This document shows, in pieces, positions 28,982 through 52,770 of a stretch of DNA of 64,000 nt (its first letter is position 1; every line of letters starts with the position of its first letter). The notes beneath the pieces were generated by a model that worked only from the letters and a program-made list of their open reading frames with translations, was not told the origin of the DNA and ran no database searches. This stretch comes from an uncultured bacterium (GTDB lineage Bacteria > Patescibacteriota > Minisyncoccia > Phycocordibacterales > GWA1-40-21). The DNA lies in the NCBI GenBank assembly GCA_903832855.1, contig CAILDB010000017.1:4992-68991 (forward strand), read 5' to 3'. The position numbers and the translations under genes were made by a program.

Positions 28982-29010
28982 CTGGATTCCCGTATTCACG
29001 GGAATGACAG
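28982..29010. repeat. hairpin repeat unit in the mraY 5' leader (ctggattcccgtattcacgggaatgacag)
   Basis: 11 nt upstream of the mraY ATG. Confidence 0.7.
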
Positions 29011-36188: not shown

Positions 36189-36668
36189 TCATTTCAATCC
36201 TGCACAACCAGAAGCCGGGGTCAAACCTTTGGCTCTAGCTTCTTCTACAGTATTTAAATAAACTTTGTTCTCTTCTTTTATACGAGCGACACCAGAACAC
36301 CAAGTGTAATAATATTTTGTACCAGATTTTGAAGCAACGATACTTCCCTTCTCTGTCACAGTAGTTTGGGATGCTTGAGTCGAAGCAGACTGGATTCCCG
36401 TATTCACGGGAATGACAGATGTGGAGGAAGTTGGATCAATGCCGTTCCACTTATAATATTCCTCCGTCTTTGTCACCGTGATTGGCTCTTTTTGCTTTTC
36501 ATAAGTTGAAAGTCTGCCTAGTGCAAAGGCCAAAGTAGCGGTAAGTAAAAAAACTGCCAAAATAAAAACAACTTCAGGCATTTTGTTCATATCAAAATAG
36601 CTTTTTGCCCTATCAACAAAGTATTTCTTTTGCCACTTGATTTTTTCTTTTAAATCGTTTATACTCAT
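36189..36668 (-). CDS. membrane-anchored protein with a C-terminal domain weakly resembling the Ada N-terminal Zn-binding fold; carries an in-frame hairpin-repeat insertion
   Basis: TM near the N-terminus; C-terminal YYYTWCSGVARIKEENKVYLNTVEEARAKGLTPASGC vs Ada CRPSCRARHALRENVSFYANASEALAAGFRPCKRC; repeat-encoded SVIPVNTGIQ. Confidence 0.45.
   Translation of the reverse strand: MSINDLKEKIKWQKKYFVDRAKSYFDMNKMPEVVFILAVFLLTATLAFALGRLSTYEKQKEPITVTKTEEYYKWNGIDPTSSTSVIPVNTGIQSASTQASQTTVTEKGSIVASKSGTKYYYTWCSGVARIKEENKVYLNTVEEARAKGLTPASGCAGLK
36389..36417. repeat. hairpin repeat unit inside the 36189..36668 CDS
   Basis: ctggattcccgtattcacgggaatgacag; translated in frame as SVIPVNTGIQ on the minus strand. 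Confidence 0.7.
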
Positions 36669-37502: not shown

Positions 37503-37592
37503 TCATAAATAATAGCTTTAAATAGGCCTGAAATATAGCTTGACAAAAAATATATCATTTGTTATGATAGTAAATAGAAGAGGAGGTGGAAA

Positions 37593-37778
37593 ATGAAAGA
37601 ACCATTCTTTAGTATGTCGTTGCTGTTAGCCGTGTTGGCTGGGATTACATGGGATGCCCATTTAATGAAAACTAGCCTTTCAGGTATTGCAATCACATCT
37701 GGGTTGGTTGCGATAATAACAGCCATCGTTTCTGCAACACTCAAAATTTGCGAAGCGATCAGAGAATCCAAAAAGTAG
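37593..37778 (+). CDS. hypothetical small membrane protein (61 aa)
   Basis: AGGAGGTGG RBS 5 nt upstream; hydrophobic; strong terminator immediately after. Confidence 0.5.
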   Translation: MKEPFFSMSLLLAVLAGITWDAHLMKTSLSGIAITSGLVAIITAIVSATLKICEAIRESKK

Positions 37779-37787
37779 TTCAGAGCC

Positions 37788-37822
37788 CAGCCCCGCGTGT
37801 CCGCACGCGGGGCTATTTCTTT
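37788..37822 (+). terminator. rho-independent terminator (gccccgcgtg tccg cacgcggggc + tatttctttg)
   Basis: 10-bp GC stem with a U-rich tail. Confidence 0.6.
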
Positions 37823-37828
37823 GTCCTC

Positions 37829-37896
37829 TCTGTCATTCCGTTGAAGAACGGAATCCAAAGAATCAGGGATGGATCCCGGCCTACGCCGGGATGACA
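37829..37896. repeat. two tandem hairpin units
   Basis: tctgtcattccgttgaagaacggaatccaaag + gatggatcccggcctacgccgggatgacat. Confidence 0.7.
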
Positions 37897-37906
37897 TTCA
37901 GAAATG

Positions 37907-39190: not shown

Positions 39191-39209
39191 AATCTACTAC
39201 GGGGTCAAA

Positions 39210-39566
39210 CTAAAGTGCGAGTTTTTTCAAAAGAAGATTGAAAAGTGCATAGAAGGCCTGCTGGGTCTCTGTCTGACTTTTGGCATTAGTAAAGTTTGTC
39301 CAAGAGGTGAAAATATCTTTGTCATTTAAGGCCCGGACAGAATTTTCCAATTGCAATCTATCATCAAAAGAAACCACAGATGACCCCTGAAGGACCTTCG
39401 TCATAAAAAGCTCCGTGAAAGATAAAACATTTTTATTTATTTGCTGTTTTTGAGTTGCGTCTGCTAAAGCTCGTGTATTTTTCAAATACATATAAGCAAA
39501 AAACGCATTGCTAATGACAAGCGCGACGAGCAACACGGCTACCAAAATTTTAGATTTATTTTGCAT
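39210..39566 (-). CDS. hypothetical membrane-anchored protein
   Basis: Start taken at MQNKSKILVAVLLVALV; the upstream extension MRGSSIKK is encoded by a hairpin repeat unit. Confidence 0.4.
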   Translation of the reverse strand: MQNKSKILVAVLLVALVISNAFFAYMYLKNTRALADATQKQQINKNVLSFTELFMTKVLQGSSVVSFDDRLQLENSVRALNDKDIFTSWTNFTNAKSQTETQQAFYALFNLLLKKLAL

Positions 39567-39576
39567 TTTTTTAATA

Positions 39577-39606
39577 CTGGATCCCCGCATTCGCGAGGAT
39601 GACAGA
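39577..39606. repeat. hairpin repeat unit (ctggatccccgcattcgcgaggatgacag)
   Basis: Sits between the stop of the giant gene and the start of the 39210 gene. Confidence 0.7.
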
Positions 39607-39610
39607 GTAA

Positions 39611-42600
39611 TTATACCAATAATTTATCTTTTTTACCACGACGAATAGTAAAAATAAATATAAGATAAATGAGTGCAAGAAAGATTCCGCCGAGCAAAAT
39701 CGTCTGAAAATTAAGCAACCCTAGCAAGCTTGTCTTCGCTTTGAGTTCAATATTGATAAACACACCTTTACCTTCATCCACTTTAAATGGAGCGCCCACA
39801 TAATCAGAGTATGAGTTTGAAATAACTTTGAGCTTGTATGTGCCGACTGGAACAAGGAAAGCATATCTTCCCGTCACATCTGTCGTCTGTGGATTTTGTT
39901 GTCTAAAGTCACTTGACGGCCAGAGTTCATAAGCATTTGTCGCAGGATTTAACCAATCAATAGAAACCAAAGCATTGCTAATGCGTGTCTCCTCTCCATT
40001 ATTTATTTTGTAAACATACCCCTCCGGATCCACAACCACCACCATACTGATTGTTTTTGGTGCAATGTTTGCTTTGTAATTTATAATAGTCCTAAGTTCA
40101 TATGTTCCCAGAGCAAGAGGTGATGCAACTTCCGCAGTCCAAACACCATTTCCGGAATCAATATAATTAAATTTATTTAAAACGAGATCGGTTTGGCTGG
40201 TTGGATAACTACCAACTGTTGTGCCAGAAATTGTCGGGTTATTTTCCATTGCAAAGGCAACGGAAGCGGTCTGAGAAAGACTGGATTGCTTCGCCTTGCT
40301 CGCAATGACAGAAGAAGAAACAGAAGAGACAGAACTGGATTTAAATATCATATAACCCTGCACCGTGCTTGCCTTCCCTTCTGGCTTCACAACAAATTTA
40401 AGTGGCTGACCCTGAATAGTATTGAGAGTTTGTAGAGCAAGCCCAGCGTCTGTAACTGGTAATCCAACAGTATTCACACTCTTTAAATTAATTCCTGCAT
40501 TTGCAATTGATAATTTGACACCCAAATCAATACTTCCATCTGCTGTCTGTGCAAAAATCACATCCGTCGGTATTTGATTAATTTGTTTTTGTGAAAAGTT
40601 TGTCACTGCCACACTTTGTCCTTTTTGCAAACCGGCTATTTCAGAAAGTCCCGGCAATGAAATATTTCCTACGCCACTAAGTTGCGAAACATCACTCATT
40701 TTAGTAATGCCAATTTTTTGTAAAGTTGTAGCAACCACTGGAAATTTATTTACAATGTTTTGAAAATCACTTGGCAGACCTTCAAAAACAAAATTATTTA
40801 TATTATTTGCTATAACTGTCGGCCATTTATTCTGAAATGCAACAGGAGTAACTTGTGGGACAGATTGTGTGATAGGAGGATATGTTACATTCTCATCTTG
40901 ACCTTGTGGTATGACATTTGTAATAATTTTGGTTATTGTGTCTGTTATTGTATTTGTCACTTGTCCTGTCACAGCTTTCGTATTATCTATAACTTCAGTA
41001 ATAAGTGGCACAGCATTTAAAGTAATATTTTGTGAATAAGCAGGAGTCGCTACACCAGAAGGTGAAAGAAATTTTGTGTAAATTGTGTAATTTGCATCAG
41101 GGCAAACAGATTGTCCTTGGCAAAGATTATATTGATAAGTAGAGGTGACATATGGGATGGTCGTAATGTTTGAAAAGTCAGGATTTGTGGACACCACAAC
41201 TGCAGAAGCAGTCCCATATGGGTTTGCAGAGAATTGCAAATTAACCACTCTTTGATCTGTTGAGCCAGCTCCGTTATTTATTGAAAAGGAATATGTTGAA
41301 GTAGCGACTGGTGTAGATGAACCACCTCCCTTACTAACACTGCCATGATGAACGGCTGGAATAGTATATGTCAAATGTGTCGCAGTTCCTGAAGTATCTT
41401 TATTTCCATAAGCATCTTCACAGGCCAAATAAATATTCTTTGTTCCGGCACCTCCAAGGTCAGGTGATGTGCAAGAAATCAAAATGCTATCAGTTACAGA
41501 ACAGCTCGTGTCCCCTGACATCCCGTCATATGATTTTGCTGTAGCACTAGGCGAATATGCCAAACGACAATCCCCTGCTTCACTTAGTGTAAATGTAACA
41601 ACTTGATTATTTGAAATTCTTGAACCATCTACTGGAAGAATATTTGAAATAGTTGGCGCAACAGTTGACCATGTTAGATTGAAAGTGCTTGAAGCAGAGT
41701 TGCTAGCGAGATCAGTAGTAGTGAGAGCAATAACATATGCTCCGTCATCAGTGCCGGCTGATATTGTGGTACTTACGGCAGTGGCTGAACCAAAATTAAT
41801 TGTTCCTGGGCCAGAAACTTTTGACCACAAGTAACTTGCAATACCACTTCCACCATCAGTCGCAGAACCTGTTTGTGTAAATGTCGCTTTCTTGGACTGG
41901 TCTGCACCGGCACTTACAGAAGGCGCCGTCGTATCCCAAGTCAAATTAAATGTGCTTGAAGCGGAATTGCCGGCGAGATCTGTAGCTGTAAGAGAGATGA
42001 GATATGCTCCATCTTGATTTGCTGAAATATTTACGGTCGGCAAAGTTGTGGAACTAAAACTAACTGCTCCCGGTCCAGAAAGTTTGGACCACAAATAGCT
42101 TGCTACTTCGGAAGTAATGTCCGTAGCGGAACCTGTCTGAGAAAATAGTGCATTTTTGACCTTGTCTGCTCCTGCACTGACACTTGGCACGGTATTATCT
42201 ACAGTCACTGTAATAATAGACGAGGTCGCCTGATTTCCTGTACCATCTCGTGCGACAGCAGTGATCTCGTGATTTCCATCGTCAAGAGATGTGGTATCTA
42301 AAGTCGTAGTGTAAGGCGCAATTAGATCTTCTCCACCGATATTTGTACTCCCATCCAGTTTAAATTGAACTCCAGAAACAGATACATCATCAACGGCATT
42401 TGCCGAAACAGTCACAGAATTTCCTCTGACTTTTGCATTATTAGCCGGAGCTGTTACGGAAACCGTTGGAGCTGTAATATCTGCTTGCACAGTGAAAGAT
42501 ATTGTAAATTCGTCACTATTGACATTGCCCACTGCATCACTGCACTTGACATAATATAGATAGGAACCGCCGTTTGAAAGTTCGGAAATAATTGAAGAGT

Positions 42601-45600
42601 GCGTCGTTGTGGCTGTTGTGGTACTAAATAATGTCATACTTGCATATGAAATATTTGTAGCAGAATATTTACAAGTTGCTGGTTCATTTGTAGTCAAAGA
42701 TATCGTGGTTGAAGAAGTATTTAATGCAAGTGTTCCACCTGGTGCTCCACCCGAGCGAACCGGCGGGGAAATATCAATGAGCATAGAAGCAGAGCAAGAA
42801 GAAGTGGCTTGATTGGTTGCCGTATCAATACTTACAATTTTGTATGAATATGTGAGAGCGTCATTTCCGGTAAAATCTCTCGTCTGCAAAGAGTTTGACG
42901 CGAGGTCAATCATACTACCAGATATAGTGTCGCAAGTAGCACCCGTGTAAAATAGAATTTTTTGGTCGGCTAAGTCACCCGAATTGGACTTCGTCCACGA
43001 AGCAGTAACCGCAGTAGTACTAGCTGGAGATGTTTGGGACCAAACAAGAGATGTCGCAGTATTTGGAGCAGTCGTATCCAAAATAAAGTTACCCATACTT
43101 GTCCAAGATGAAGTGGCGACGCCATCATTGTTTTGAGCACACCAATAATATGTGGCATCACTTCCGATAGATGAGCTAGGTGTCCAAGTAGTAGTGGCGT
43201 TGTTAGAAGCAGTTTCTGCAGATGTACCACTATCTACAACCGTGCCACCTGTACAATTTACTGCACTTGATGCAATTCTATAATTAGTAGTACCTACATC
43301 AGCAGTATCTGGGTCAGAATAAATGGCTGATAAAGTGGGCGTGGTGTCTGTGGTATATGAAGCGGTCGTAGGCGAAACCAAAGTCGGAGCATTTGGTGCA
43401 GTGTTAAAATTCCAGTTTGTGTTATTGCCTCCGTTTGTGGAATTGGTTTGGGAAATTAAAGTTCCGCCCGAGGCGTTGGAATAAGCGGCGTTAACATAGC
43501 TGGCCGAGGCAGTGCCGGCGACATTTAGATACCAAGCACTTGCCGGATTCAAAGTCAGTAAAGCTCCGCTGTGTCCCGATGCCGAGAAATTTCCGCCGAC
43601 GGTGATGGTGCTGCCGATGAAGCCGGAGGCGGTCACATTGGCGACGGTGGCGGTGCCAGTATAGTTTGTGTCTGGTGCATAAGAACCCGAAATTGTAGCC
43701 GGAAAACCTCCTGACTTCCACCAGTCGTTACCCGTTGCCACTCCCGGAACCGGAGTAATAATAAATGATAAAGTATCATTTGATACATACCAGTTATCAC
43801 TTCCCCGACGATACTCTGGAATACCATTTCTTAACCCCACATAAGTATACGTCCCTATCGCGTTAGGGTTTAGCGTTCCGCTCACCGTCACTTGGTTATA
43901 ATAAGTGCCGGAAGTATTAGCCAGTCCCGAAGCGGTAATTAAAGCGCCGTCAGAGATGGTGAGATTTCTGGCGCCTGTGGTAGTGATGTTTTTCCCGCCG
44001 GCAGAAAGTGTCCCTGCTGTTACTGCAACGCTCCCCGATGCCACCAAATTATCCTGCAAAGTCCACGCTCCACCCGTCCCATTAAATGTCAGATTATTAA
44101 ATTTAGAATTCGTCGCCCCGCTCGTAATTGTTTTTCCTGTTGCAGTTGAATTAAAAATCACCGTAGAATTATCCGCCACAAACTGCGAAGGTGCGGTGCC
44201 TGTGCCGTAGTTTAGCCAGTTACCGCCGACGGTAACAGTGGAAGTTCTTCCACCTGCCCCCGTGGCGTCCAATTTCTTGAGGGCGGTGTCAGCCCCAACG
44301 CCAATGGTAATGTTACCGCCGATGGTGAGATTATAGCCGTCGGTTTTATAACCAAGTGCTCTTCCTGCTCCACCAGAAATAAAATACATGGATTTTGTTG
44401 TATTAAGGGTAACATTACCAGTTTGAGTTAATATCCCTCCGGGGACATCCACATAGATATCACTACTATAACCATTTACGAGTGCTGGAATTGATTGTGA
44501 TGCAGTTTGTCCATAAAAATAAAGCGACGGTACAGATAGTGTAGAAGCCGCATCAAAACTTAACGGAGTTGCTCCTTTCAAATACATATTACCCGATCCA
44601 GTCAGGATACCAGAACCAATCGTTACATTTGATATTATGCAAATATGTGAAGCCAAAGTTACTGTGTTACCACTTTGTCCAACTGTAAGATTATTAAATC
44701 CGTTATCCCAATAAGTTGGATTATTCCCATACGTCAGCGTATTCGTCCCATTCAGTACTAAGCTCGCCGAGTTGTATTGCGTGGAATCCAGTGTCCCATT
44801 CGCCGTAAATGTCCCATTGCCATTGACGGTGATGGTAGCGGTGCTGGCATTGAAGCGTGAAGTGATAGATGACTGGTCAAAGTTGCCCGATGATAATGTA
44901 ACTTTTGATGCACCTGTTGCCGTTACCACTCCGCCTGCCCCGACTGTCAGTCCTGCGGTAGTCCATCCAGTGTTCCCTGAAATGCCGATAGTGGTAGTGG
45001 CTCCGGTGACAGTAGAAGAACCAGTAACTGTGAGGTCGTTTGTTCCTATTGCAAATGTTCCACCTGAGACCGAGAGATTTCCTCCGACAGATATTGCAGT
45101 CGAGTTTGTAAACGAACCGCCATCTTGAGTGTAATTACCGGAAAGTGTAAATGTTCCGCCAGAAATTGTGCTGTGATTGATAACACTGCCAGTAAATGTT
45201 CCGCCAGAAATAGTGCCGTTATTTGTAACAGTCCCCGCAGAGCAAGTGCCAGATGACGGATAAGTGGCTAAACTGGCCGGGATTTCCGCTGTATAACTGG
45301 CGCTTCCGCAAGGATAACTGCCTGTCCAGTTGGCTCTGTTGGTCAAAACGCCATCTGCTGAACCGTTCCATGTACCATTGCCATCACCAAGTGTCTGCCC
45401 TTCCGAGCCAGCGCCGTTGTTGTAAAGAGTTAAAACATCATCAGCACTTAGGGCGGTGTTGTATATACGGACATCGTCAATGGAGCCAGTGAACCGATAC
45501 AAATTTTTACCTCCAACATATAAATTAGAATTTGAAATCATTTGGCTACTTGGCTGTGCAGCAGTAGCCGTTCCAGAAGGAGTGCCATCAATATAGAACC

Positions 45601-48600
45601 TCATCATATCCGCGTTTGTAGTCCCATTCCACGCAACTGTTATTAGATGCCATCCAGTAGATGTGATTGAATCGCTTGAGAAGTTGTCAATGCTACCGAA
45701 CACACCAGCATTAAATCCAAAGTATATTTTATTATTAGACCATAATCCAAAATCAAAATCGGATTCACCATTATACGTGGCCTCAGCTTTTGATAAGACA
45801 GCACCTAAATGACCCAAGCTTGCAGGATTAACCCAAACTGATAAAGTTAATGCCTTTCCAATCATATTGAGGGAATCCGAGTTTGCCACCACAACCTTAT
45901 CCCCCGTCCCATTAAAACTCATCGCCTTGCCTATTTTCGCAGTAGCCAAAAGGTCTGTGTTTCGTTGAGCTGTTCCTGTGTGTCCGCCAATGCTGTCTGC
46001 CACAGTCGTATTTGTTGAATCATCATTCATCTTGTAATGAGCCACAAGACCAGTTCCCAAAGCCCCTGCTTCACTTTCTGTCCCTGCTCCACTGGCGTAA
46101 AGTGCGTCAATAGCTGTTTGGTCTAAGGCGGTGTTGTAGATACGGACATCATCGATGGAGCCGGGGAAATAATCACCACCAGGGTTTGTTGCACGACCAA
46201 TGGTAAAATTCGCGGCATTAACAATATTCCCGGCAGTATCTACGACTGTGCCACTGCTTATCCCATTAATATAAAACTTGTATAATCCTCCAGTTCTAAC
46301 AAGCGTCACATAATTCCAAGCATTTTTAGTGACCACACTCGTACTATAGCCATAAGGGTTGAAAGTTCCATCATAAGTTTCTACATACAATTGGTTTCCT
46401 CCTCCTGCATTTATATAAGCGAATATGTATCCTGTACCGCCTGATGTAGAAATAATTGCTCTTTTGTATACATCTGCATCAACACTAGGTTTAATCCAAG
46501 CCGATAAAGAAAAATCCCCTGTCCCAAATTGCAAAGAAGAAGGATTCCCAGCATCCACATAATCACTCGTCCCATTAAAACTCAAAGCACTGCCGATTTT
46601 TGAGGTAGTCATAATAGAAGTGTTTGTCGCCGATGTTCCTGTATTTGAACCAACGCTATCTGCAACAACAAGCGAAGCTGCGTCATCATTCATTGTGTAA
46701 TGAGCCACAAGACCGCTCCCCAAATTCGCCGGAGTTAAATAGCGGACAATCACGATACCGGAACCGCCGTTTCCGCCAGGAAAACCATTCCACATTCCGC
46801 CGCCGCCGCCGCCCGTGTTGGGAGTGCCAGCCGTCCCGCCATAATCTCCTCCTGCTCCGCCCCCGCCGAGTCCTCCGCTACCGGGAGTCGTTTGCCCTGC
46901 ACCGCCGCCACCGCCTCCGTATACGGCAGATATGCCGGACAATTGATTGGACATCCCTGCTCCGCCGTTGCCACCGACTTGGGACGTGCTTGCAGTATCT
47001 CCGTTGGTAGATGCCCCACCACCGCCGCCGCCTTTCTGTGCATAATTGTTGTTTCCGCCAGCAAAACCCTGCCCATTTGTTGCACTGCCACCAACCGTGT
47101 TGCCGCCCCACGACCCACCAGCTCCACCACCCGAACCTCCTGGAAATCCGTTACCATTCTTTCCACCCGCACCACCCCCAAAGGCAGTAAGACCCGCAAA
47201 AACAGAGTTGGAACCGTCGCTCGCGTCTACGGGACTACTTAGCCAGCCCCTTCCCCCTGCGCCGACAATAACTGGATATTCTCCCGTCACCGCCAAACTG
47301 CCTGTCAGTACCCCGCCTCCACCACCGCCTCCTACACTACCTCCACCGCCACCCGCCACCACCAACACATCAGCAGAAGTAACTCCTGTTGGCAGAGTTA
47401 ATGTTGTAGTTCCAACAGTTGTATATGTACAAACAGTGTAAAGCGGGTCGTCGGGCGCGGTAGCGCAAACCGGGTCAACAATATAGTCAATGTCTACGTT
47501 GCCTGAGATTTTTAAATCAAAAACATCTGTGGGAGTTTGTAAATTTTGTAAAAGTATTCGGTATTTGCCGTCTTCAGAAATATTTTCAAAAGTTGGATTT
47601 GTGCCGTCGGAAACTGTTTCCAGCATTTGACCTTGGGTTTGATTTCCATCTTCATCGGTATAAACAGGATAAACCTCAACACTTGCTGATTGACCATTAT
47701 TTGTTGATTTTGCGTAAACCGTAATATCTTTTGTCTCATCCAAAATCTTTTGGAAAGTAACACGAACATAGTTTCCATTTGGTACAGTGGCATAATCTTT
47801 GTCTTGTGTTGCAACTATGTCATAAATATCATTAATAATTTCTTTGTTTTGGTCTAACTCAAAGGCTTTTGAAATAAAGATAATTTCAAAAGTTTGTGTT
47901 GAGAGGTGCGGGACAGTCCATTCTACATAGTCCAGTTTGCCATTGCTGTTGAGGTCATAGGCGTGGAATGTAACATTCTGGTCGCCATTATTTGTCCATT
48001 TAATTTTGATTTTTGATTCTTGACCTACTTTGTAAATTTCGGGGATGTTGGTAAAGGCGAGGACATTGGTGAGGTGCTCGGGTCCCGAGGTTGCCGAGGG
48101 ACCAGCTATTTCTGGTGCAGAAACCTGAACTATTTTTCCTGTGTCTGTGTTTGCTTCTGCAATAGTTGGAGCTGGGGTTTCGTATGATACAAGGACGGTG
48201 GAAGATGAAACGGATTCGGAAGGAGTTGAAGAGGACTGGATTGCTTCGCTTGTGCTCGCAATGACAGAAGAAGAAACAGAGGAAGTCGAAGAGGGATGGA
48301 TCCCGACCTCCGTCGGGATGACAGAATCAGAAGAGGAAGCAGAGGAAGTCCCCGCTCCCGTATTGTCATTCCGTTGAAGAACGGAATCCATCCCCGATTC
48401 CTGTGATGATGTTGCAGATGAAGTAGAAACAAATGAAGAGATATCGAGATTTAGAATTGGGAGTGATGTGGCCTGCCCCGTTAGAAGTAGGCTACTTGTA
48501 GCCGTTAGTTCTAATGGGGTGGAGGAAAATTGATCTGTAGAAGAAGATGGGGAGGACTGGATTCCTGCCTCCGCAGGAATGACAGAGGAGTCCTTGTCCT

Positions 48601-49270
48601 TCTTTTCTGTCTTGTCTGCTTTTTCTACTTTATCTTTTTTGTTTGAATCCTTTGATAAAGTGTCGGAGGACTGGATTGCTTCGTCTTCACTCGCAATGAC
48701 GGAAGAGTCGGGTATCTGCGTACTGAGGTCTATGATGACAGTATCGGGAGCTTGGTCACCTGAAAGTGCTTCGTCAACAGTTGCAAACATTTTTCCCATT
48801 TTTGAAAAGATATTTTGAAAGAAAGCAAAAAAACCTTTTGCATTTTTTTGCTTGATTGATTTTGCAAGTGCAAGAGATGCTGATGAGCTGGCTCTCTGAC
48901 TCGCGAGTTCTGATAATTTTATTCTGTCTGCGTTTGTGAGATTCCCCGACTTGGACATGGCATGTCCAAGTGCAGTGGTTGTGGAAATTTTTACATTATC
49001 TGCAACTTTCGGAATTACTAAAAGATGCTGATTTGAATTTATGCTAACTGTCTTTACCCATTTTATTGGCTCTCCGGGGACTGACGGAAGCTGACTTGTA
49101 ATAGTGCCTTTGACGAGAGCAACATTATTATCTTGAGAATTATTTGAAAGGCTTGAAAAATCAGATATCTTGTAGACAGCAAAAATCAAAGCCACCAATA
49201 CCACAGCGACACCCAAAACCACTAGAGTTTTTTTGAGACCAGATTTTTTATAAATTTCCTCTTGCTCCAT
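39611..49270 (-). CDS. giant (3219 aa) cell-surface protein
   Basis: Single 9.66-kb ORF with TM anchors at both ends. In N-to-C order: Ser-rich linker carrying hairpin-repeat insertions; Gly-rich domain; two laminin-G/ConA-like domains (DDVRIYNTAL x2); beta-helix-like T/S/G/N-rich region; Ig-like domains; two tandem PKD domains (SAGADQ...SYLWSK.SGPG); CarboxypepD_reg-like domain. Confidence 0.85.
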   Translation of the reverse strand: MEQEEIYKKSGLKKTLVVLGVAVVLVALIFAVYKISDFSSLSNNSQDNNVALVKGTITSQLPSVPGEPIKWVKTVSINSNQHLLVIPKVADNVKISTTTALGHAMSKSGNLTNADRIKLSELASQRASSSASLALAKSIKQKNAKGFFAFFQNIFSKMGKMFATVDEALSGDQAPDTVIIDLSTQIPDSSVIASEDEAIQSSDTLSKDSNKKDKVEKADKTEKKDKDSSVIPAEAGIQSSPSSSTDQFSSTPLELTATSSLLLTGQATSLPILNLDISSFVSTSSATSSQESGMDSVLQRNDNTGAGTSSASSSDSVIPTEVGIHPSSTSSVSSSVIASTSEAIQSSSTPSESVSSSTVLVSYETPAPTIAEANTDTGKIVQVSAPEIAGPSATSGPEHLTNVLAFTNIPEIYKVGQESKIKIKWTNNGDQNVTFHAYDLNSNGKLDYVEWTVPHLSTQTFEIIFISKAFELDQNKEIINDIYDIVATQDKDYATVPNGNYVRVTFQKILDETKDITVYAKSTNNGQSASVEVYPVYTDEDGNQTQGQMLETVSDGTNPTFENISEDGKYRILLQNLQTPTDVFDLKISGNVDIDYIVDPVCATAPDDPLYTVCTYTTVGTTTLTLPTGVTSADVLVVAGGGGGSVGGGGGGGVLTGSLAVTGEYPVIVGAGGRGWLSSPVDASDGSNSVFAGLTAFGGGAGGKNGNGFPGGSGGGAGGSWGGNTVGGSATNGQGFAGGNNNYAQKGGGGGGASTNGDTASTSQVGGNGGAGMSNQLSGISAVYGGGGGGAGQTTPGSGGLGGGGAGGDYGGTAGTPNTGGGGGGMWNGFPGGNGGSGIVIVRYLTPANLGSGLVAHYTMNDDAASLVVADSVGSNTGTSATNTSIMTTSKIGSALSFNGTSDYVDAGNPSSLQFGTGDFSLSAWIKPSVDADVYKRAIISTSGGTGYIFAYINAGGGNQLYVETYDGTFNPYGYSTSVVTKNAWNYVTLVRTGGLYKFYINGISSGTVVDTAGNIVNAANFTIGRATNPGGDYFPGSIDDVRIYNTALDQTAIDALYASGAGTESEAGALGTGLVAHYKMNDDSTNTTVADSIGGHTGTAQRNTDLLATAKIGKAMSFNGTGDKVVVANSDSLNMIGKALTLSVWVNPASLGHLGAVLSKAEATYNGESDFDFGLWSNNKIYFGFNAGVFGSIDNFSSDSITSTGWHLITVAWNGTTNADMMRFYIDGTPSGTATAAQPSSQMISNSNLYVGGKNLYRFTGSIDDVRIYNTALSADDVLTLYNNGAGSEGQTLGDGNGTWNGSADGVLTNRANWTGSYPCGSASYTAEIPASLATYPSSGTCSAGTVTNNGTISGGTFTGSVINHSTISGGTFTLSGNYTQDGGSFTNSTAISVGGNLSVSGGTFAIGTNDLTVTGSSTVTGATTTIGISGNTGWTTAGLTVGAGGVVTATGASKVTLSSGNFDQSSITSRFNASTATITVNGNGTFTANGTLDSTQYNSASLVLNGTNTLTYGNNPTYWDNGFNNLTVGQSGNTVTLASHICIISNVTIGSGILTGSGNMYLKGATPLSFDAASTLSVPSLYFYGQTASQSIPALVNGYSSDIYVDVPGGILTQTGNVTLNTTKSMYFISGGAGRALGYKTDGYNLTIGGNITIGVGADTALKKLDATGAGGRTSTVTVGGNWLNYGTGTAPSQFVADNSTVIFNSTATGKTITSGATNSKFNNLTFNGTGGAWTLQDNLVASGSVAVTAGTLSAGGKNITTTGARNLTISDGALITASGLANTSGTYYNQVTVSGTLNPNAIGTYTYVGLRNGIPEYRRGSDNWYVSNDTLSFIITPVPGVATGNDWWKSGGFPATISGSYAPDTNYTGTATVANVTASGFIGSTITVGGNFSASGHSGALLTLNPASAWYLNVAGTASASYVNAAYSNASGGTLISQTNSTNGGNNTNWNFNTAPNAPTLVSPTTASYTTDTTPTLSAIYSDPDTADVGTTNYRIASSAVNCTGGTVVDSGTSAETASNNATTTWTPSSSIGSDATYYWCAQNNDGVATSSWTSMGNFILDTTAPNTATSLVWSQTSPASTTAVTASWTKSNSGDLADQKILFYTGATCDTISGSMIDLASNSLQTRDFTGNDALTYSYKIVSIDTATNQATSSCSASMLIDISPPVRSGGAPGGTLALNTSSTTISLTTNEPATCKYSATNISYASMTLFSTTTATTTHSSIISELSNGGSYLYYVKCSDAVGNVNSDEFTISFTVQADITAPTVSVTAPANNAKVRGNSVTVSANAVDDVSVSGVQFKLDGSTNIGGEDLIAPYTTTLDTTSLDDGNHEITAVARDGTGNQATSSIITVTVDNTVPSVSAGADKVKNALFSQTGSATDITSEVASYLWSKLSGPGAVSFSSTTLPTVNISANQDGAYLISLTATDLAGNSASSTFNLTWDTTAPSVSAGADQSKKATFTQTGSATDGGSGIASYLWSKVSGPGTINFGSATAVSTTISAGTDDGAYVIALTTTDLASNSASSTFNLTWSTVAPTISNILPVDGSRISNNQVVTFTLSEAGDCRLAYSPSATAKSYDGMSGDTSCSVTDSILISCTSPDLGGAGTKNIYLACEDAYGNKDTSGTATHLTYTIPAVHHGSVSKGGGSSTPVATSTYSFSINNGAGSTDQRVVNLQFSANPYGTASAVVVSTNPDFSNITTIPYVTSTYQYNLCQGQSVCPDANYTIYTKFLSPSGVATPAYSQNITLNAVPLITEVIDNTKAVTGQVTNTITDTITKIITNVIPQGQDENVTYPPITQSVPQVTPVAFQNKWPTVIANNINNFVFEGLPSDFQNIVNKFPVVATTLQKIGITKMSDVSQLSGVGNISLPGLSEIAGLQKGQSVAVTNFSQKQINQIPTDVIFAQTADGSIDLGVKLSIANAGINLKSVNTVGLPVTDAGLALQTLNTIQGQPLKFVVKPEGKASTVQGYMIFKSSSVSSVSSSVIASKAKQSSLSQTASVAFAMENNPTISGTTVGSYPTSQTDLVLNKFNYIDSGNGVWTAEVASPLALGTYELRTIINYKANIAPKTISMVVVVDPEGYVYKINNGEETRISNALVSIDWLNPATNAYELWPSSDFRQQNPQTTDVTGRYAFLVPVGTYKLKVISNSYSDYVGAPFKVDEGKGVFINIELKAKTSLLGLLNFQTILLGGIFLALIYLIFIFTIRRGKKDKLLV
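40281..40312. repeat. hairpin repeat unit inside the giant gene (C-terminal region)
   Basis: ctggattgcttcgccttgctcgcaatgacag, giving SVIASKAKQS in frame. Confidence 0.7.
48236..48395. repeat. array of four hairpin units inside the giant gene N-terminal linker
   Basis: Encodes SVIASTSEAIQ, SVIPTEVGIH and, in inverse orientation, MDSVLQRND, all in frame. Confidence 0.7.
48557..48585. repeat. hairpin unit inside the giant gene
   Basis: ctggattcctgcctccgcaggaatgacag, giving SVIPAEAGIQ. Confidence 0.7.
48671..48700. repeat. hairpin unit inside the giant gene
   Basis: ctggattgcttcgtcttcactcgcaatgac, giving SVIASEDEAIQ. Confidence 0.7.
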
Positions 49271-49415
49271 TTTTGTATGCTTCTATTTTATAAAGAAATA
49301 AACAGCAAGTCAACCATTTTTTACCAAATTTACCCCTAAGTAATTATCCACAGTTTTTTCGCTTGACAATGTTCCGAGGTTTGCTATACTTGCACTATCA
49401 CGACGAAAGAGGTTC

Positions 49416-49943
49416 TCAAAGGGTTCCATCCCGACGAGAGCCTTTTTCATTTATATATTCTATTTTATTCTTCTGTTCAGAAACAAAGGTAAGTATATTA
49501 TTGTCAACACTACCTAACTTTTTGAATAAAGCTGAATAATTTTTATTTGGGACAAGTAATTGTTCTAATTTATTATTTTTTATCAAATATTCAACTAAGC
49601 AGTAAAAATCTCCATCTCCAGAGACAATAACCGCTTTATCAAAATTATTAAACTCAATCATTGTGTGCAAAACTAACTCGGCATCAACATTACCTTTAAC
49701 CTTCCCATTTAATAATTCTAAAGTCGGTTTAAAAACACAGATGTAACCAGCATCTTGGAGAAATGAATATAAAGATTCGTTACCTAGTTTGTATCCAATA
49801 AATAAATACGCTTTTGAAACAGAATATTTATCTTTCATGAAGATCCTTAGTTTTCTCCAATCAATTTTCCAACCCAAAGATTTAATTCCTAGGTTAAGAT
49901 TTTGACTATCTATAAAAGCATAATTATTTTCTTTCGATTTCAT
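49416..49943 (-). CDS. NYN-domain (LabA-like, PIN-like) putative ribonuclease
   Basis: AFIDSQNL ... KAYLFIG ... IVSGDGDFYCLVEYL conserved acidic motifs of the NYN fold. Confidence 0.65.
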   Translation of the reverse strand: MKSKENNYAFIDSQNLNLGIKSLGWKIDWRKLRIFMKDKYSVSKAYLFIGYKLGNESLYSFLQDAGYICVFKPTLELLNGKVKGNVDAELVLHTMIEFNNFDKAVIVSGDGDFYCLVEYLIKNNKLEQLLVPNKNYSALFKKLGSVDNNILTFVSEQKNKIEYINEKGSRRDGTL

Positions 49944-50032
49944 AATTGTATTCTACCAAAGTGTTATCAAAAAACCAAACTTGGACTTGTGGAAATTATA
50001 TTAAATAGATATAATTAGAGCAATAGAAAAAT

Positions 50033-50978: not shown

Positions 50979-51233
50979 ATGCAATATGTCTATGTGTTAC
51001 AAAGTAAAATGGATGGTGGTTTATACACTGGTTGCACGAATAACTTGAAAAGTAGGTTCATATTGCATAATGCGAAAAAAGTTGATTCTACTGCAAAACG
51101 AACTCCATTTGTGCTAATATACTATGAAGCATACATAAATAGTCACGATGCATATAACCGCGAGAAGTATATGAAGACACAATATGGCAAGAATTATTTG
51201 AAAAAGGTTTTGTCCAACTTTTTTAATCAGTAA
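50979..51233 (+). CDS. GIY-YIG nuclease-family small protein
   Basis: YVYVLQSKMDGGLYTGCTNNLKSRFILHN is the GIY-YIG core; 84 aa. Confidence 0.7.
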   Translation: MQYVYVLQSKMDGGLYTGCTNNLKSRFILHNAKKVDSTAKRTPFVLIYYEAYINSHDAYNREKYMKTQYGKNYLKKVLSNFFNQ

Positions 51234-51249: not shown

Positions 51250-52770
51250 ATGTTTAACTTTCTCAAATCTAAAAAAGTTGTCTTTCTCTATAATACTCTT
51301 TCCAGAAAAAAAGAGGTTTTTAGACCTATTAAAAAAGGTCAGGTGAAATTTTATCAATGTGGACCGACAGTTTATTGGACTCAACATATTGGCAACATGC
51401 GTGCATTTGTTTTGTCTGATTTTATGCGTCGTTCTCTTTCATATCTTGGATACAAAGTAACTTTTATAAGAAATTATACTGATGTCGGACATCTGACTTC
51501 CGATAGTGATGTGGGCGAAGACAAAATGGAAAAAGCCGTAAAAAGAGAAGGTGGAAGTCCAAAGGAAATTGCCGATAAATACACAAAGATTTTTGAAAGT
51601 GATACAAATGATTTGAATATTTTAGAGCCGGATTTCAAACCTCGTGCTACAGAATTTGTTGCAGATATTATTGATTCAGTTGGAATTTTAATTAAAAAAG
51701 GATTCGCCTACCCTACCGATCTTGCAATTTATTTTGATATTTCAAAAGCAAAAGATTACACCAAACTTTCCGGACAAAATCTGGAAGAAAATAAAAGTGG
51801 CGCAGGAAATGCTGAAGTTGAAGATAAACAGAAAAGAAATCCTGCCGATTTTGCTCTGTGGTTTTTCAAAGCAGGAAAGCACGCAAATGCTTTGCAATTT
51901 TGGCCATCACCTTTTACTTCTTCACTTGTTAAAAACGGCGAAGGTTTCCCTGGCTGGCACATAGAATGTTCTGTAATGGTCAAAAAACTTCTTGGAAATA
52001 CGATAGATATTCATATGGGCGGAGTAGAACACATTCCTGTTCATCACACAAATGAAATAGCTCAAAGCGAAGCACTCAATGGTGTTACTTTTGTAAATTA
52101 TTGGCTACATAATGAATGGCTTATGGCAGATGGCGGAAAAATATCTAAATCAGTTGGCACAGCATTTAGTTTATCCGATTTGAAGGAAAAAAGTTTTAAT
52201 CCTCTGGTCTTGCGATATTTCTTTATGCAGGCACATTATCGTTCCAAACAAAACTTTACTTGGGAGGCACTTGAAGGTGCGAGGAACGGTTACGAACATT
52301 TGATAAATCAAATCTCTGTCATTGCGAGCAAAGCGAAGCAATCCAGTCTTCTTCTGTCATCCCGGCGCAGGCCGGGATCCATCTCCTCCTCTGTCATTGC
52401 GAGTGAAACGAAGCAATCCATCGGCCATACTGACCCCACTTTCAAAACCAAATTTTCTAAAATAATCGGTGATGACTTTGGTATTTCCCAAGCACTCGCA
52501 CTTCTTCAGGAAGTCTTGAAATCAGACATTCCAAAAGAAAATAAACTTGCGACTATTTACGATTTTGATAAAGTTCTTGGACTGGATTTACAAAAGGCCG
52601 CCGAACTTTCTGAAAATATTCCCGACGAAATCATAAAACTTGCAGAAGAAAGAAAACTCGCCCGCTCCGACAAAAACTGGTCAAAATCCGACGAACTCCG
52701 CGACAAAATAGCATCTCTTGGTTATGAAATCAAAGATTCTTCTGCTGGATACGAAATTTCTAAAAAGTAG
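51250..52770 (+). CDS. cysS: cysteinyl-tRNA synthetase (with a 39-aa repeat-derived in-frame insertion)
   Basis: YQCGPTVYWTQHIGNMR (HIGH) and KISKSVG (KMSKS); 506 aa including the SVIASKAKQSSLLLSSRRRPGSISSSVIASETKQSI insert. Confidence 0.9.
   Translation: MFNFLKSKKVVFLYNTLSRKKEVFRPIKKGQVKFYQCGPTVYWTQHIGNMRAFVLSDFMRRSLSYLGYKVTFIRNYTDVGHLTSDSDVGEDKMEKAVKREGGSPKEIADKYTKIFESDTNDLNILEPDFKPRATEFVADIIDSVGILIKKGFAYPTDLAIYFDISKAKDYTKLSGQNLEENKSGAGNAEVEDKQKRNPADFALWFFKAGKHANALQFWPSPFTSSLVKNGEGFPGWHIECSVMVKKLLGNTIDIHMGGVEHIPVHHTNEIAQSEALNGVTFVNYWLHNEWLMADGGKISKSVGTAFSLSDLKEKSFNPLVLRYFFMQAHYRSKQNFTWEALEGARNGYEHLINQISVIASKAKQSSLLLSSRRRPGSISSSVIASETKQSIGHTDPTFKTKFSKIIGDDFGISQALALLQEVLKSDIPKENKLATIYDFDKVLGLDLQKAAELSENIPDEIIKLAEERKLARSDKNWSKSDELRDKIASLGYEIKDSSAGYEISKK
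52314..52430. repeat. three tandem hairpin units inside cysS
   Basis: ctctgtcattgcgagcaaagcgaagcaatccag + tcttcttctgtcatcccggcgcaggccgggatccatc + tcctcctctgtcattgcgagtgaaacgaagcaatccatc. Confidence 0.75.

What the first reader, a model, noticed from the sequence alone, without database searches (positions are those of the whole stretch)
39611..49270. 3219-aa two-ended membrane-anchored surface protein with Gly-rich, LamG, beta-helix, Ig/PKD and CarboxypepD_reg-like modules
A single uninterrupted 9.66-kb ORF (15% of the window) with an N-terminal TM and a C-terminal TM plus basic tail, but no LPXTG. It holds two laminin-G/ConA-like lectin domains (each ending DDVRIYNTAL), a ~200-aa Gly-rich domain, a long T/S/G/N-rich probable parallel beta-helix, several Ig-like domains, two tandem PKD domains, and a C-terminal transthyretin/CarboxypepD_reg-like fold. 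Giant adhesin-like proteins are typical of episymbiotic reduced-genome bacteria and probably mediate host attachment. The gene is much more GC-rich than its surroundings because of Gly/Ala/Pro codons, which produces many antisense shadow ORFs.
Basis: partly seen in the sequence, partly recalled or inferred. Interest (0 to 1): 0.6.

Follow-up and report, generated by a model that had tools for sequence, protein, structure and literature searches.

The report
Giant modular surface protein of Patescibacteria
This is a real, intact 3219-residue gene for a giant membrane-anchored, lectin-rich surface protein of an ultra-small (CPR/Patescibacteria) bacterium; the kind is already known, but the gene sits in a recently inserted island and carries six small hairpin DNA repeats inside its reading frame.

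Summary
A single 9,660-nt ORF (39611-49270, minus strand, 3219 aa) is intact, and a second public assembly has it with one amino-acid change. Supported domain calls: Gly_rich_2, two Laminin_G_3, Big_7, two K319L-type PKD, and a C-terminal transthyretin/CarboxypepD_reg-like domain. The ends are hydrophobic helices and there is no LPXTG. The proposed beta-helix could not be confirmed. That 665-aa module is an unannotated cassette, also found on a protein with a type IV prepilin leader.

A highly conserved N-terminal domain (aa 359-600; 2,116 cluster representatives; not in Pfam or NCBIfam) and a conserved C-terminal module flank a variable middle. Shorter relatives with the same N-terminal part are targets of diversity-generating retroelements.

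The organism is a Minisyncoccia/Paceibacteria-type patescibacterium. Close relatives have corA directly beside the S41 protease, so NYN + giant gene + a small ORF form a ~10.8-kb lineage-specific island. Six copies of a 26-29-nt hairpin repeat lie in frame within the gene, and three more within cysS.

Most likely function: a surface display or adhesion protein binding glycans or proteins on host cells or particles. This is inferred, not shown. It is a new member of a known kind.

The parts
39611..49270 (-). Whole ORF, 3219 aa, giant surface protein
   Evidence: The same ORF is in independent assembly L001 with one aa change.
49285..49313 (-). Promoter-like site (TTGACT-17-TAAAAT), 15 nt upstream of the ATG
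   Evidence: This is a consensus match only; the number of such sites in the region is not above the shuffles.
49160..49228 (-). N-terminal hydrophobic helix (aa 15-37), preceded by KKSGLKK; probable signal anchor
   Evidence: Hydropathy 2.9 at aa 15. Most relatives also have an N-terminal TM. Whether it is cleaved was not testable.
48761..49138 (-). N1 region (aa 45-170): conserved VKG..Q.P.VPG.PI.W segment, then an amphipathic aromatic helix (GFFAFFQNIFSKMGKMF)
   Evidence: Shared by 27-39 of 103 relatives and by the short DGR-target relatives. No Pfam hit.
48197..48760 (-). Ser/Thr-rich disordered linker (aa 171-358), largely built from five in-frame hairpin repeats
47471..48196 (-). Conserved N-domain ('Ndom', aa 359-600): two beta-sandwich subdomains. 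Contains the EF-hand-like loop DLNSNGKLDYVE (aa 439-450, window 47921-47956).
   Evidence: - 77 of 103 relatives share it at 50-68% identity.
- Alignment A1 has invariant D, L, D, E in the loop.
- AF2 model pLDDT 87.
- Only weak PDB matches, to CBM/APC10/discoidin-type jelly rolls.
- 2,116 cluster representatives at E<=1e-3.
- No Pfam or NCBIfam hit.
46739..47422 (-). Gly_rich_2 domain (aa 617-844)
   Evidence: Pfam PF21722, 77.8 bits. PHROG 2295, E 6e-42.
46091..46711 (-). LamG/ConA-like lectin domain 1 (aa ~854-1060)
   Evidence: Pfam Laminin_G_3, best stretch 899-1054.
45398..46048 (-). LamG/ConA-like lectin domain 2 (aa ~1075-1291)
   Evidence: Second Laminin_G_3 stretch; Laminin_G_2 at 1179-1269. 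Partial TafC match at 1078-1291, far below its cut-off.
43403..45397 (-). Central T/S/G/N-rich module (aa 1292-1956), an unannotated cassette; fold untested
   Evidence: - 62-64% identical to P0202 and to the C-terminal part of P0203, which has a type IV prepilin leader.
- Also present in Omnitrophica proteins.
- No Pfam, PDB or hhalign match.
42479..43402 (-). About three Ig/FN3-like units (aa 1957-2264) with no Pfam hit above threshold
   Evidence: Sequence pattern only. PDB sequence hit 3pdd_A covers 2212-2353.
42257..42469 (-). Big_7 bacterial Ig domain (aa 2268-2338)
   Evidence: Pfam, 63 bits.
41669..42196 (-). Two tandem K319L-like PKD domains (aa 2359-2534)
   Evidence: Pfam, 2 stretches. 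PDB hits 6nz0_Z and 2yrl_A. DNA direct repeat D7 at 41669-41746 / 41936-42013.
40994..41668 (-). Further Ig-like units (aa 2535-2759), unassigned
   Evidence: Sequence pattern only; shared with about 20 relatives.
40031..40993 (-). Conserved C-module, first part (aa 2760-3080): amphipathic helix, small helical region, and an Ig-like sandwich split by a disordered loop
   Evidence: 41 relatives. AF2 model pLDDT 68 with a low-confidence loop at aa 2981-3026.
39731..40030 (-). Transthyretin/CarboxypepD_reg-like domain (aa 3081-3180)
   Evidence: Pfam PF13620, E 7e-5 and 23.5 bits, below the 32.3 cut-off; 16 of 17 relatives match. Foldseek 5aq0_B, TM 0.78, prob 1.00.
39614..39715 (-). C-terminal TM helix plus basic tail RRGKKDKLLV (aa 3186-3219), preceded by the conserved NIELK.K motif
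48672..48700 (-). Hairpin repeat in frame (peptide SVIASEDEAIQS, aa ~190)
48558..48583 (-). Hairpin repeat in frame (SVIPAEAGIQS, aa ~229)
48365..48390 (+). Hairpin repeat in frame, opposite orientation (MDSVLQRNDN, aa ~294)
48297..48322 (-). Hairpin repeat in frame (SVIPTEVGIHPS, aa ~316)
48237..48265 (-). Hairpin repeat in frame (SVIASTSEAIQS, aa ~335)
40282..40309 (-). Hairpin repeat in frame within the C-module loop (SVIASKAKQS, aa ~2987); the same peptide as in CysS
   Evidence: It lies in the AF2 low-confidence loop.
39191..50032 (.). Lineage-specific island: NYN gene (49416-49943), giant gene, and a 126-aa TM protein (39210-39590), inserted between corA and the S41 protease gene
   Evidence: Relatives with 91-92% identical DnaB (L081, L083) have corA directly adjacent to the S41 peptidase gene.

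Best explanation
The gene encodes a giant cell-surface display or adhesion protein of a Patescibacteria (Minisyncoccia/Paceibacteria-type) bacterium.

Shown:
- It is an intact ORF.
- It is built from a conserved N-terminal 'chassis' (TM helix, N1 region, Ser/Thr-rich linker, Ndom), a variable middle, and a conserved C-terminal module.
- The middle holds a Gly-rich domain, two LamG lectin domains, a 665-aa cassette also found on a protein with a type IV prepilin leader, Ig/FN3-like units, Big_7 and two PKD domains.
- The C-terminal module holds helices, an Ig-like sandwich, a transthyretin-like domain, a TM helix and a basic tail.
- The chassis is shared by thousands of proteins, often several per genome. 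These include short proteins whose C-terminal lectin-fold tip is mutagenised by a diversity-generating retroelement.

Inferred:
- The N-terminal helix acts as a Sec signal anchor. The roughly 3,150 residues between the helices lie outside the cell, and the C-terminal helix returns the chain to the membrane. Both ends obey the positive-inside rule, giving a long loop or stalk.
- The disordered linker crosses the wall.
- Ndom, with its DxNxNG...E loop that probably binds Ca2+, serves a conserved anchoring or assembly role.
- The lectin, PKD and cassette modules bind glycans or proteins on a host cell or on particles.
- Diversity arises by cassette exchange and island gain or loss, not by a DGR in this copy.
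For: Integrity.

Domains.

Topology features.

Conserved ends and variable middle:
- The coverage map shows 77 of 103 relatives sharing aa 350-600 at 50-68% identity and 41 sharing aa 2750-3219. Only 1-9 share aa 650-850 and most of aa 1300-1950.
- Family size is 2,116 representatives, with the domain nearly always 100-600 aa from the N-terminus in the listed full-length proteins.
- All but three of the named hits are Patescibacteria, and several genomes carry 2-4 copies.

Outward-facing binding role of the family:
- In 8 loci, short Ndom proteins (735-978 aa; seven with a clear N-terminal TM, none with a C-terminal TM) end in a variable repeat. It is matched by a template repeat in which 72-100% of mismatches fall at template A positions (e.g. 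23/23, 17/18, 21/22). bAvd and a reverse transcriptase lie next to them.
- The central cassette is 62% identical to part of P0203, which begins MFKNKGFSLIELLLVVAIAAG, a type IV prepilin leader. Modular pilins present adhesive modules (PMC8179133).

Accessory status: relatives with 91-92% identical DnaB lack the gene at this locus. One of those genomes has a different Ndom protein elsewhere (L007).

Literature: giant membrane proteins with adhesion-type domains are described in CPR epibionts and proposed as host-attachment factors.
Against: - No experiment or expression data exist, and no ligand is known.
- The topology rests on hydropathy and the positive-inside rule; no signal-peptide predictor was available.
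- The most conserved part (Ndom) has no informative structural match, so its role is a guess.
- No conserved neighbouring gene points to a partner or export system.
- The host or lifestyle of this organism is not known from the window.
- The central module's fold is untested.
Confidence: 0.6

Rival explanations
1. Same protein but different topology. The N-terminal helix is a cleaved signal peptide, so the protein is a type I membrane protein held only by its C-terminal TM helix. The conserved N-terminal domains then sit at the distal tip.
For: The N-terminus has the n-region/h-region layout of a signal peptide. The C-terminal TM plus basic tail is conserved in the subfamily.
Against: The hydrophobic stretch is about 19-23 residues, long for a cleaved signal peptide, and no AXA-like site follows it. 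Short DGR-target relatives have the same N-terminal helix but no C-terminal TM, so in them the N-terminal helix must be the anchor and the variable tip is C-terminal. Some relatives end in an amphipathic WW..W.F tail instead of a TM.
Confidence: 0.2
2. It is a structural envelope protein (S-layer-like coat or wall scaffold), not a ligand-binding adhesin.
For: The conserved ends, the many Ig-like spacers, the probable Ca2+ loop and the multiple paralogues per genome would also suit a coat protein. Giant proteins were linked to the fibrous surface of Vampirococcus.
Against: The gene is absent from the same locus in close relatives. The middle is not conserved between family members. Family members are DGR targets and share a cassette with a pilin-like protein. 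All of this fits variable ligand binding better than a core structural role.
Confidence: 0.12
3. It is phage-derived (tail-fibre-like) or part of a prophage or mobile element.
For: The Gly-rich domain matches PHROG 2295 and LamG matches PHROG 14220. The gene lies in an inserted island beside an NYN nuclease gene.
Against: The window has no capsid, terminase, portal or integrase neighbours, and the flanks are housekeeping genes. Membrane anchors at both ends are not a virion feature. The N- and C-modules belong to a large cellular family.
Confidence: 0.04
4. It is a decaying or chimeric gene: an assembly artefact or pseudogene kept open by chance.
For: The gene carries six repeat insertions. 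The other assembly breaks at a repeat just past the gene.
Against: The 9.66-kb frame is open in two assemblies, with one substitution and no indels. The conserved domains are full length. The repeats sit only in disordered linkers.
Confidence: 0.03

Closest known systems
Giant membrane proteins of CPR epibionts (Vampirococcus lugosii; Absconditicoccaceae)
   Same: They are proteins of more than 1,400-4,000 aa with TM or signal regions and PKD, ConA/LamG or FN3-type domains, in reduced-genome Patescibacteria. They are proposed to mediate host recognition and attachment (PMC8080830, PMC13059738).
   Different: They belong to another class of Patescibacteria. No sequence relationship was tested. 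The conserved Ndom and C-module described here are not mentioned in the passages read.
LamG/PKD surface proteins and giant 'SPEARE' proteins of Nanohaloarchaeota (DPANN)
   Same: They are strain-specific giant or multi-LamG surface proteins of an ultra-small episymbiont, thought to bind host glycans (PMC10266531). An Ndom relative also lies on a DPANN contig next to ribosomal protein L15e (L080).
   Different: SPEARE proteins carry a VirB4/TraG-like ATPase and are proposed secretion devices. No ATPase or enzyme domain was found here.
Modular type IV pilins (PilB/PilC of Streptococcus sanguinis and many CPR examples)
   Same: An adhesive module is grafted onto a carrier. PilC carries a ConA-like lectin module (PMC8179133). 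The central cassette here is 62% identical to part of P0203, which has a prepilin leader.
   Different: The giant protein itself has no prepilin leader (G/FxLxE). Its carrier is a TM-anchored chassis, not a pilin.
Targets of diversity-generating retroelements in CPR bacteria
   Same: Short family members share the TM-N1-Ndom chassis and end in a lectin-fold variable repeat mutated from template adenines.
   Different: The window has no reverse transcriptase, Avd or TR/VR pair. This copy varies by cassette content. Roux et al. wrote that CPR targets typically lack recognisable TM or conserved domains (PMC8144416).
Sortase-anchored (LPXTG) and RTX/Bap-type giant adhesins (e.g. SiiE)
   Same: They are long strings of Ig-like units with lectin-type tips and Ca2+ sites. 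SiiE appears among weak structural matches to the C-module.
   Different: There is no LPXTG, and no RTX or type I secretion signal was seen. The protein is anchored by TM helices at both ends.
Rickettsia palindromic elements (RPEs), for the in-frame repeats
   Same: They are short palindromic elements inserted in frame into unrelated genes, including essential ones, and are tolerated in surface loops (PMC10969869).
   Different: RPEs are about 150 bp. These repeats are 26-29 nt with conserved GTCAT...ATCCA flanks and a covarying 8-bp stem, closer in size to REP elements. No associated transposase was found in the window.

Membership tests
Pfam Laminin_G_3 (PF13385) | Score above the gathering cut-off (27.6 bits) | tested here: met
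   161.9 bits, two stretches.
Pfam Gly_rich_2 (PF21722) | Score above the cut-off (24.3 bits) | tested here: met
   77.8 bits, aa 617-844, full profile 1-225/226.
Pfam Big_7 (PF17957) | Score above the cut-off (24.1 bits) | tested here: met
   63 bits, aa 2268-2338.
Pfam K319L-like_PKD (PF22352) | Score above the cut-off (27 bits) | tested here: met
   49 bits, two stretches. PDB hit to the KIAA0319-like protein.
Pfam CarboxypepD_reg (PF13620), by sequence | Sequence score above the cut-off (32.3 bits) | tested here: not met
   23.5 bits, E 7.4e-5 for the C-terminal segment; 16 of 17 relatives match at E<=0.01.
Transthyretin-like fold of carboxypeptidase D, by structure | Structural superposition on a solved transthyretin-like domain | tested here: met
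   Foldseek 5aq0_B: TM (target) 0.78, rmsd 4.2, prob 1.00. 3mn8 also matches. The model has pLDDT 76-91 in that domain.
Right-handed parallel beta-helix (Pfam Beta_helix/NosD/PATR) | Profile match or rung periodicity | tested here: not met
   No Pfam hit at E<=1, no PDB profile hit, and hhalign probability 0.1% against the Beta_helix/NosD protein P0034. No clear periodicity. The fold itself was not modelled.
NCBIfam TafC fimbrial protein (NF052521) | Equivalog cut-off of 410 bits | tested here: not met
   123.8 bits, covering only the LamG part. TafC is a haloarchaeal Tat-fimbria subunit.
Sortase substrate | LPXTG-type motif before the C-terminal TM helix and basic tail | tested here: not met
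   No LP.T[GASN], NP.TG or related motif anywhere in the protein.
Type IV pilin / modular pilin | N-terminal prepilin leader (G/FxLxE) and hydrophobic alpha1-N | tested here: not met
   The N-terminus reads MEQEEIYKKSGLKKTLVV.... The relative P0203 does have the leader.
DGR target protein | VR/TR pair with A-specific mismatches, plus a nearby RT and Avd | tested here: not met
   No RT or Avd homologue in the window by tblastn. The feature is met in 8 loci with short family members.
Unnamed 'Ndom' family of Patescibacteria surface proteins | N-terminal TM, then the conserved ~245-aa domain with the DxNxNG..LD..EW loop, 200-600 aa from the N-terminus | tested here: met
   50-68% identity to 77 relatives. 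Profile search found 2,116 representatives.
Giant CPR surface adhesins (functional class) | Demonstrated surface location and binding to a host or substrate | not testable with these tools
   Only sequence and predicted structure are available.

The most novel reading that the evidence does not exclude
The conserved N-terminal chassis (TM helix, N1, Ser/Thr linker, and Ndom with a probable Ca2+ loop) may be a dedicated, so far undescribed surface-display anchor of Patescibacteria. Some DPANN archaea may share it. It would play the role that LPXTG/sortase or SLH domains play elsewhere. Interchangeable payloads would be grafted onto it: DGR-diversified lectin tips, giant lectin/Ig arrays such as this one, and cassettes shared with modular pilins. 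That would explain why Ndom stays 50-68% identical between paralogues whose remaining sequence is unrelated.
Probability: 0.4. Interest if true: 0.65.

Novelty: new member of a known kind. Interest (0 to 1): 0.45.

Why it matters
Patescibacteria are thought to live attached to other cells, but the molecules that make contact are mostly unknown. This gene is a clear example of a very large family (over 2,000 sequence clusters) with a fixed N-terminal part and exchangeable binding modules. The link to DGR targets and to a pilin-like protein gives independent support that the family faces outward and binds variable ligands. Roux et al. wrote that CPR DGR targets typically have no recognisable TM or conserved domain; at least a subset share this TM-Ndom chassis. 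The conserved domain is a concrete target for structural and binding studies and a useful marker for finding such proteins. The in-frame hairpin repeats, present in both the giant gene and the essential cysS, show that a small mobile element is reshaping proteins in this lineage.

Tried and rejected
- Beta-helix test. Pfam at E<=1, a profile of 22 relatives against PDB sequences, hhalign against a Beta_helix/NosD-bearing relative, and residue autocorrelation all gave nothing. Both structure-prediction jobs had already gone to the two conserved modules, so the fold was not modelled.
- Conserved neighbours. ORFs of 79 related loci were clustered and no partner gene recurred in more than 10 loci. 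The S41 protease next to the giant gene is present in relatives that lack the giant gene, so no functional link is inferred.
- Prophage or phage-protein reading: rejected on context.
- TafC fimbrial protein: rejected, a LamG-only match far below the cut-off.
- DGR in this window: none found.
- RAYT/IS200-like transposase as the driver of the hairpin repeats: none in the window, though such genes occur in some related loci.
- Rfam and tRNA scans of the window: no hits.
- Literature searches found no description of the Ndom family or of these hairpin repeats in Patescibacteria. The library does not cover subscription journals.
Full report
OBSERVATION. The window contains one uninterrupted ORF at 39611-49270 on the minus strand, starting with ATG and encoding 3219 aa. 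An independently assembled public contig (L001, ENA ERZ27313580, 15.9 kb) matches the window at 99.92% over 15,803 nt without gaps. It carries the same ORF with a single substitution, M161L. That contig ends about 20 nt before the stop codon, just short of the hairpin repeat beyond it, which explains its slightly different predicted C-terminus. GC rises to 0.45-0.47 across 42-48 kb, against 0.33-0.40 around it. The gene is overlain by 100-149-aa shadow ORFs, five antisense and three on the coding strand in other frames. The GC excess is chiefly at codon position 2 (0.514 against 0.339 in 19 other genes) and reflects 12.5% Thr, 12.2% Ser, 11.4% Gly and 8.9% Ala. Pro is not enriched. GC3 is only slightly raised overall (0.343 against 0.298) but reaches 0.45 and 0.42 in the Gly-rich and central modules.

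DOMAIN CALLS. Four Pfam families pass their cut-offs:
- Laminin_G_3, two copies, 161.9 bits.
- Gly_rich_2, aa 617-844, 77.8 bits.
- Big_7, aa 2268-2338, 63 bits.
- K319L-like_PKD, two copies, 49 bits.

PDB sequence hits agree for the PKD and Ig region. The Gly-rich domain also matches PHROG 2295, a phage family of unknown function. The NCBIfam TafC match covers only a LamG domain and scores 123.8 bits against a cut-off of 410, so it is not membership. TafC is a subunit of haloarchaeal Tat-fimbriae.

The C-terminal CarboxypepD_reg call is below the Pfam cut-off for this protein (23.5 against 32.3 bits), but 16 of 17 relatives match. An AlphaFold model of aa 2760-3219 places a beta-sandwich there that superposes on the transthyretin-like domain of human carboxypeptidase D (5aq0_B, TM 0.78, prob 1.00). 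Both ends have strongly hydrophobic helices. Basic residues precede the first helix (KKSGLKK) and follow the last (RRGKKDK). No LPXTG-like motif exists.

The 'probable parallel beta-helix' (aa ~1292-1956) could not be confirmed. It has no Pfam hit at E<=1. A profile of 22 relatives finds nothing in the PDB. hhalign finds no similarity to a relative that does carry Beta_helix/NosD domains. No rung periodicity shows.

The homologue search found no full-length orthologue other than the identical copy; the best is 41-45% identity over about 30% of the length. I mapped which parts the 103 relatives share:
- 77 share aa ~350-600 at 50-68% identity.
- 27-39 share aa 1-200.
- 41 share aa ~2750-3219.
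- Only 1-9 share aa 650-850 (most of the Gly-rich domain) and most of the central module.

The family therefore has conserved ends and an exchangeable middle.

THE N-DOMAIN. The N-domain ('Ndom', aa 359-600) has no Pfam or NCBIfam match. Its alignment (A1, 28 sequences) has 32 invariant columns. These include the loop D-L-N-S-N-G-K-L-D-Y-V-E (aa 439-450). Its invariant D1, L8, D9 and E12 and near-invariant G6 fit the canonical 12-residue EF-hand/DxDxDG Ca2+ loop (the motif assignment is from general knowledge and is an inference). AlphaFold gives a confident all-beta, two-subdomain model (pLDDT 87). Foldseek finds only weak resemblance to jelly-roll carbohydrate-binding, APC10 and discoidin-type domains (TM 0.3-0.46 on the target). 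An exhaustive profile search of 1.84 billion cluster representatives finds 2,116 proteins at E<=1e-3 and 882 at E<=1e-30. Among the listed full-length proteins, which reach 5,673 aa, the domain nearly always lies 100-600 residues from the N-terminus.

TAXONOMIC SPREAD. In one-genome-per-species contigs, all but three of the named hits are Patescibacteria: Staskawicz-, Nomura-, Vogel- and Buchananbacteria, Paceibacterota and Minisyncoccia. Several genomes carry 2-4 copies. Two hits are in DPANN bins. One of them (L080) has archaeal ribosomal protein L15e about 1.7 kb upstream of the match, so it looks genuinely archaeal.

THE C-MODULE. This module (A2) is modelled less confidently (pLDDT 68). 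It comprises an amphipathic helix, a small helical region, an Ig-like sandwich interrupted by a disordered loop, the transthyretin-like domain, the motif NIELK.K and the TM helix. Some relatives replace the TM helix with a short Trp-rich amphipathic tail.

INDEPENDENT CLUES TO FUNCTION FROM RELATIVES.
(i) DGR targets. In about 10 of 79 related loci, an Ndom protein lies directly upstream of a bAvd gene and a reverse transcriptase; in the eight loci examined it is short (735-978 aa). In all eight, its last ~185 nt matches a downstream template repeat at 84-96% identity. Between 72% and 100% of the mismatches fall at template adenines (e.g. 23/23, 17/18, 21/22), the hallmark of a diversity-generating retroelement. 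Seven of the eight have a clear N-terminal TM helix, most show the N1 motif, and none has a C-terminal TM. In them the N-terminal part must be the anchor and the diversified lectin-fold tip is distal. Roux et al. noted that CPR DGR targets typically show no recognisable TM or conserved domain (PMC8144416). These loci show that at least a subset share this chassis.
(ii) A pilin-like relative. The central cassette of the giant protein is 62-64% identical to P0202 and to the C-terminal part of P0203. P0203 begins with a canonical type IV prepilin leader (MFKNKGFSLIELLLVVAIAAG). Related sequences also occur in Omnitrophica proteins. Modular pilins present adhesive modules on pili (PMC8179133).

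Both clues indicate outward-facing ligand binding.

GENOMIC CONTEXT. Neighbouring genes are housekeeping: L9, an S41 C-terminal protease, CorA, CysS, RecR and DnaB. DnaB places the organism among Minisyncoccia/Paceibacteria-type Patescibacteria. Two relatives whose DnaB is 91-92% identical keep the order DnaB-RecR-...-CysS-CorA-S41(-L9). In them corA lies directly beside the S41 gene (L081, L083). In the window, a NYN-domain gene, the giant gene and a 126-aa TM protein lie between those two genes. Window ~39.2-50.0 kb is therefore a ~10.8-kb lineage-specific island. One of those relatives carries a different Ndom protein on another contig (L007). A sigma-70-like site lies 15 nt upstream of the ATG, but such sites are not enriched in the region. 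No gene recurs next to family members across loci.

IN-FRAME HAIRPIN REPEATS. The pattern GTCAT-N15-19-ATCCA occurs 21 times in the window, against 0.7 expected. Across 26 distinct 26-nt copies from the window and other Patescibacteria loci, the flanks are invariant. An 8-bp stem is paired in 98.6% of cells, with 43 double (compensatory) changes against 14 in shuffles (0 of 500 shuffles reach this), and slid controls collapse.

Six copies lie inside the giant ORF. Five are in the Ser/Thr-rich linker (aa ~190-345), encoding SVIASEDEAIQS, SVIPAEAGIQS, MDSVLQRNDN, SVIPTEVGIHPS and SVIASTSEAIQS. One is in the disordered loop of the C-module, encoding SVIASKAKQS.

The same element, read in the same frame, occurs in CysS. 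There, three tandem copies form a 29-aa insertion that is absent from a 79%-identical CysS of a close relative. Elements of the same design sit in the corresponding linkers of Ndom proteins in other genomes. This behaviour resembles Rickettsia palindromic elements (PMC10969869), but the repeats are REP-sized. No Y1 transposase is present in the window.

MECHANISM (best explanation, confidence about 0.6). What is shown is the architecture, the family structure, the accessory location, and the link to DGR targets and a pilin-like protein. The rest is inferred, as follows. Export uses Sec through the N-terminal signal anchor. Both termini are cytoplasmic and about 3,150 residues lie outside the cell. 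The linker crosses the wall. Ndom, with a probable Ca2+ site, has a conserved anchoring or assembly role. The Gly-rich, LamG, cassette and PKD modules bind glycans or proteins of a host cell or particle.

RIVALS.
- A cleaved signal peptide, with anchoring only at the C-terminus (0.2).
- A structural coat protein (0.12).
- A phage origin (0.04).
- An artefact or pseudogene (0.03).

COMPARISON AND NOVELTY. Giant membrane proteins with PKD, ConA or FN3-type domains are already described in CPR epibionts and proposed as attachment factors (PMC8080830, PMC13059738). Analogous LamG/PKD proteins are described in DPANN (PMC10266531). This gene is therefore a new member of a known kind. In the searchable literature I found no description of four details:
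- the conserved chassis and its use by DGR targets;
- the cassette shared with a pilin-like protein;
- the island insertion;
- the in-frame hairpin repeats.

Interest is moderate (0.45). The most novel reading not excluded is that the chassis is a dedicated surface-display anchor of Patescibacteria (probability about 0.4).

Noticed in passing
window-wide: 497-522, 17096-17121, 23123-23148, 25283-25310, 28630-28693, 28983-29008, 35983-36178, 36391-36416, 37832-37895, 39578-39603, 40282-40309, 48237-48700, 52318-52420: A family of 26-29-nt hairpin repeats (GTCAT, an 8-bp covarying stem, a 4-nt loop, ATCCA). There are 21 exact-pattern copies against 0.7 expected. The stem is 98.6% paired, with 43 compensatory changes against 14 in shuffles. 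Copies of the same design occur in other Patescibacteria loci. No Rfam hit and no transposase in the window.
   Followed up: yes
window 52314-52420 (cysS, 51250-52770 +): Three tandem hairpin repeats form a 29-aa in-frame insertion (SVIASKAKQSSLLLSSRRRPGSISSSVIASETKQS) between the catalytic and anticodon-binding parts of cysteinyl-tRNA synthetase. The insertion is absent from a 79%-identical CysS of a close relative.
   Followed up: yes
window ~39191-50032: The NYN nuclease gene, the giant gene and a 126-aa TM protein form a ~10.8-kb insertion relative to two close relatives, in which corA abuts the S41 protease gene.
   Followed up: yes
L022, L024, L028, L029, L034, L036, L041, L078 (also L044, L067): Short proteins with the same N-terminal chassis are followed by bAvd and a reverse transcriptase. 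Their TR/VR pairs have mismatches mostly or entirely at template adenines (72-100%). These are DGRs diversifying the C-terminal lectin-fold tip.
   Followed up: yes
L080 6001-6657 (Nanoarchaeota MAG); L075 (Pacearchaeota MAG): The conserved N-domain also occurs on DPANN archaeal contigs. In L080, ribosomal protein L15e and a TrmB regulator lie 1.7-3 kb upstream, so this looks like real sharing between CPR bacteria and DPANN archaea rather than mis-binning.
   Followed up: partly
proteins P0203, P0202, P0204, P0205 (relatives of window 43403-45433): The 665-aa central cassette recurs at 55-64% identity in much shorter proteins. These include one with a type IV prepilin leader and two from Omnitrophica. 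No member has any Pfam annotation over the cassette.
   Followed up: partly
window 37503-37906 (ORF 37562-37897) and ORF 36189-36668: The 111-aa ORF between the S41 protease gene and rplI is partly made of hairpin repeats (MSSRRRPGSIPDSLDSVLQRNDRE...). It fills a ~400-nt gap that is 4 nt in relative L081, so it is probably not a real gene. The 159-aa ORF at 36189-36668 also contains a repeat.
   Followed up: partly
window ~50979-51233, between corA and cysS: The near-identical contig L001 has an 84-aa free-standing GIY-YIG gene called here. In relative L081, cysS and corA are 12 nt apart, so this small nuclease gene is another lineage-specific insertion.
   Followed up: no
window ~40660-40710 (aa ~2924-2940): The C-module has a 17-aa insertion (INLKSVNTVGLPVTDAG) absent from all aligned relatives. 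It looks like a local duplication of the neighbouring GLALQTLNT segment.
   Followed up: no
L001 end / window 39603-39630: The independent assembly breaks about 20 nt before the giant gene's stop codon, close to the hairpin repeat just beyond it (39578-39603). These repeats may therefore fragment short-read assemblies.
   Followed up: no
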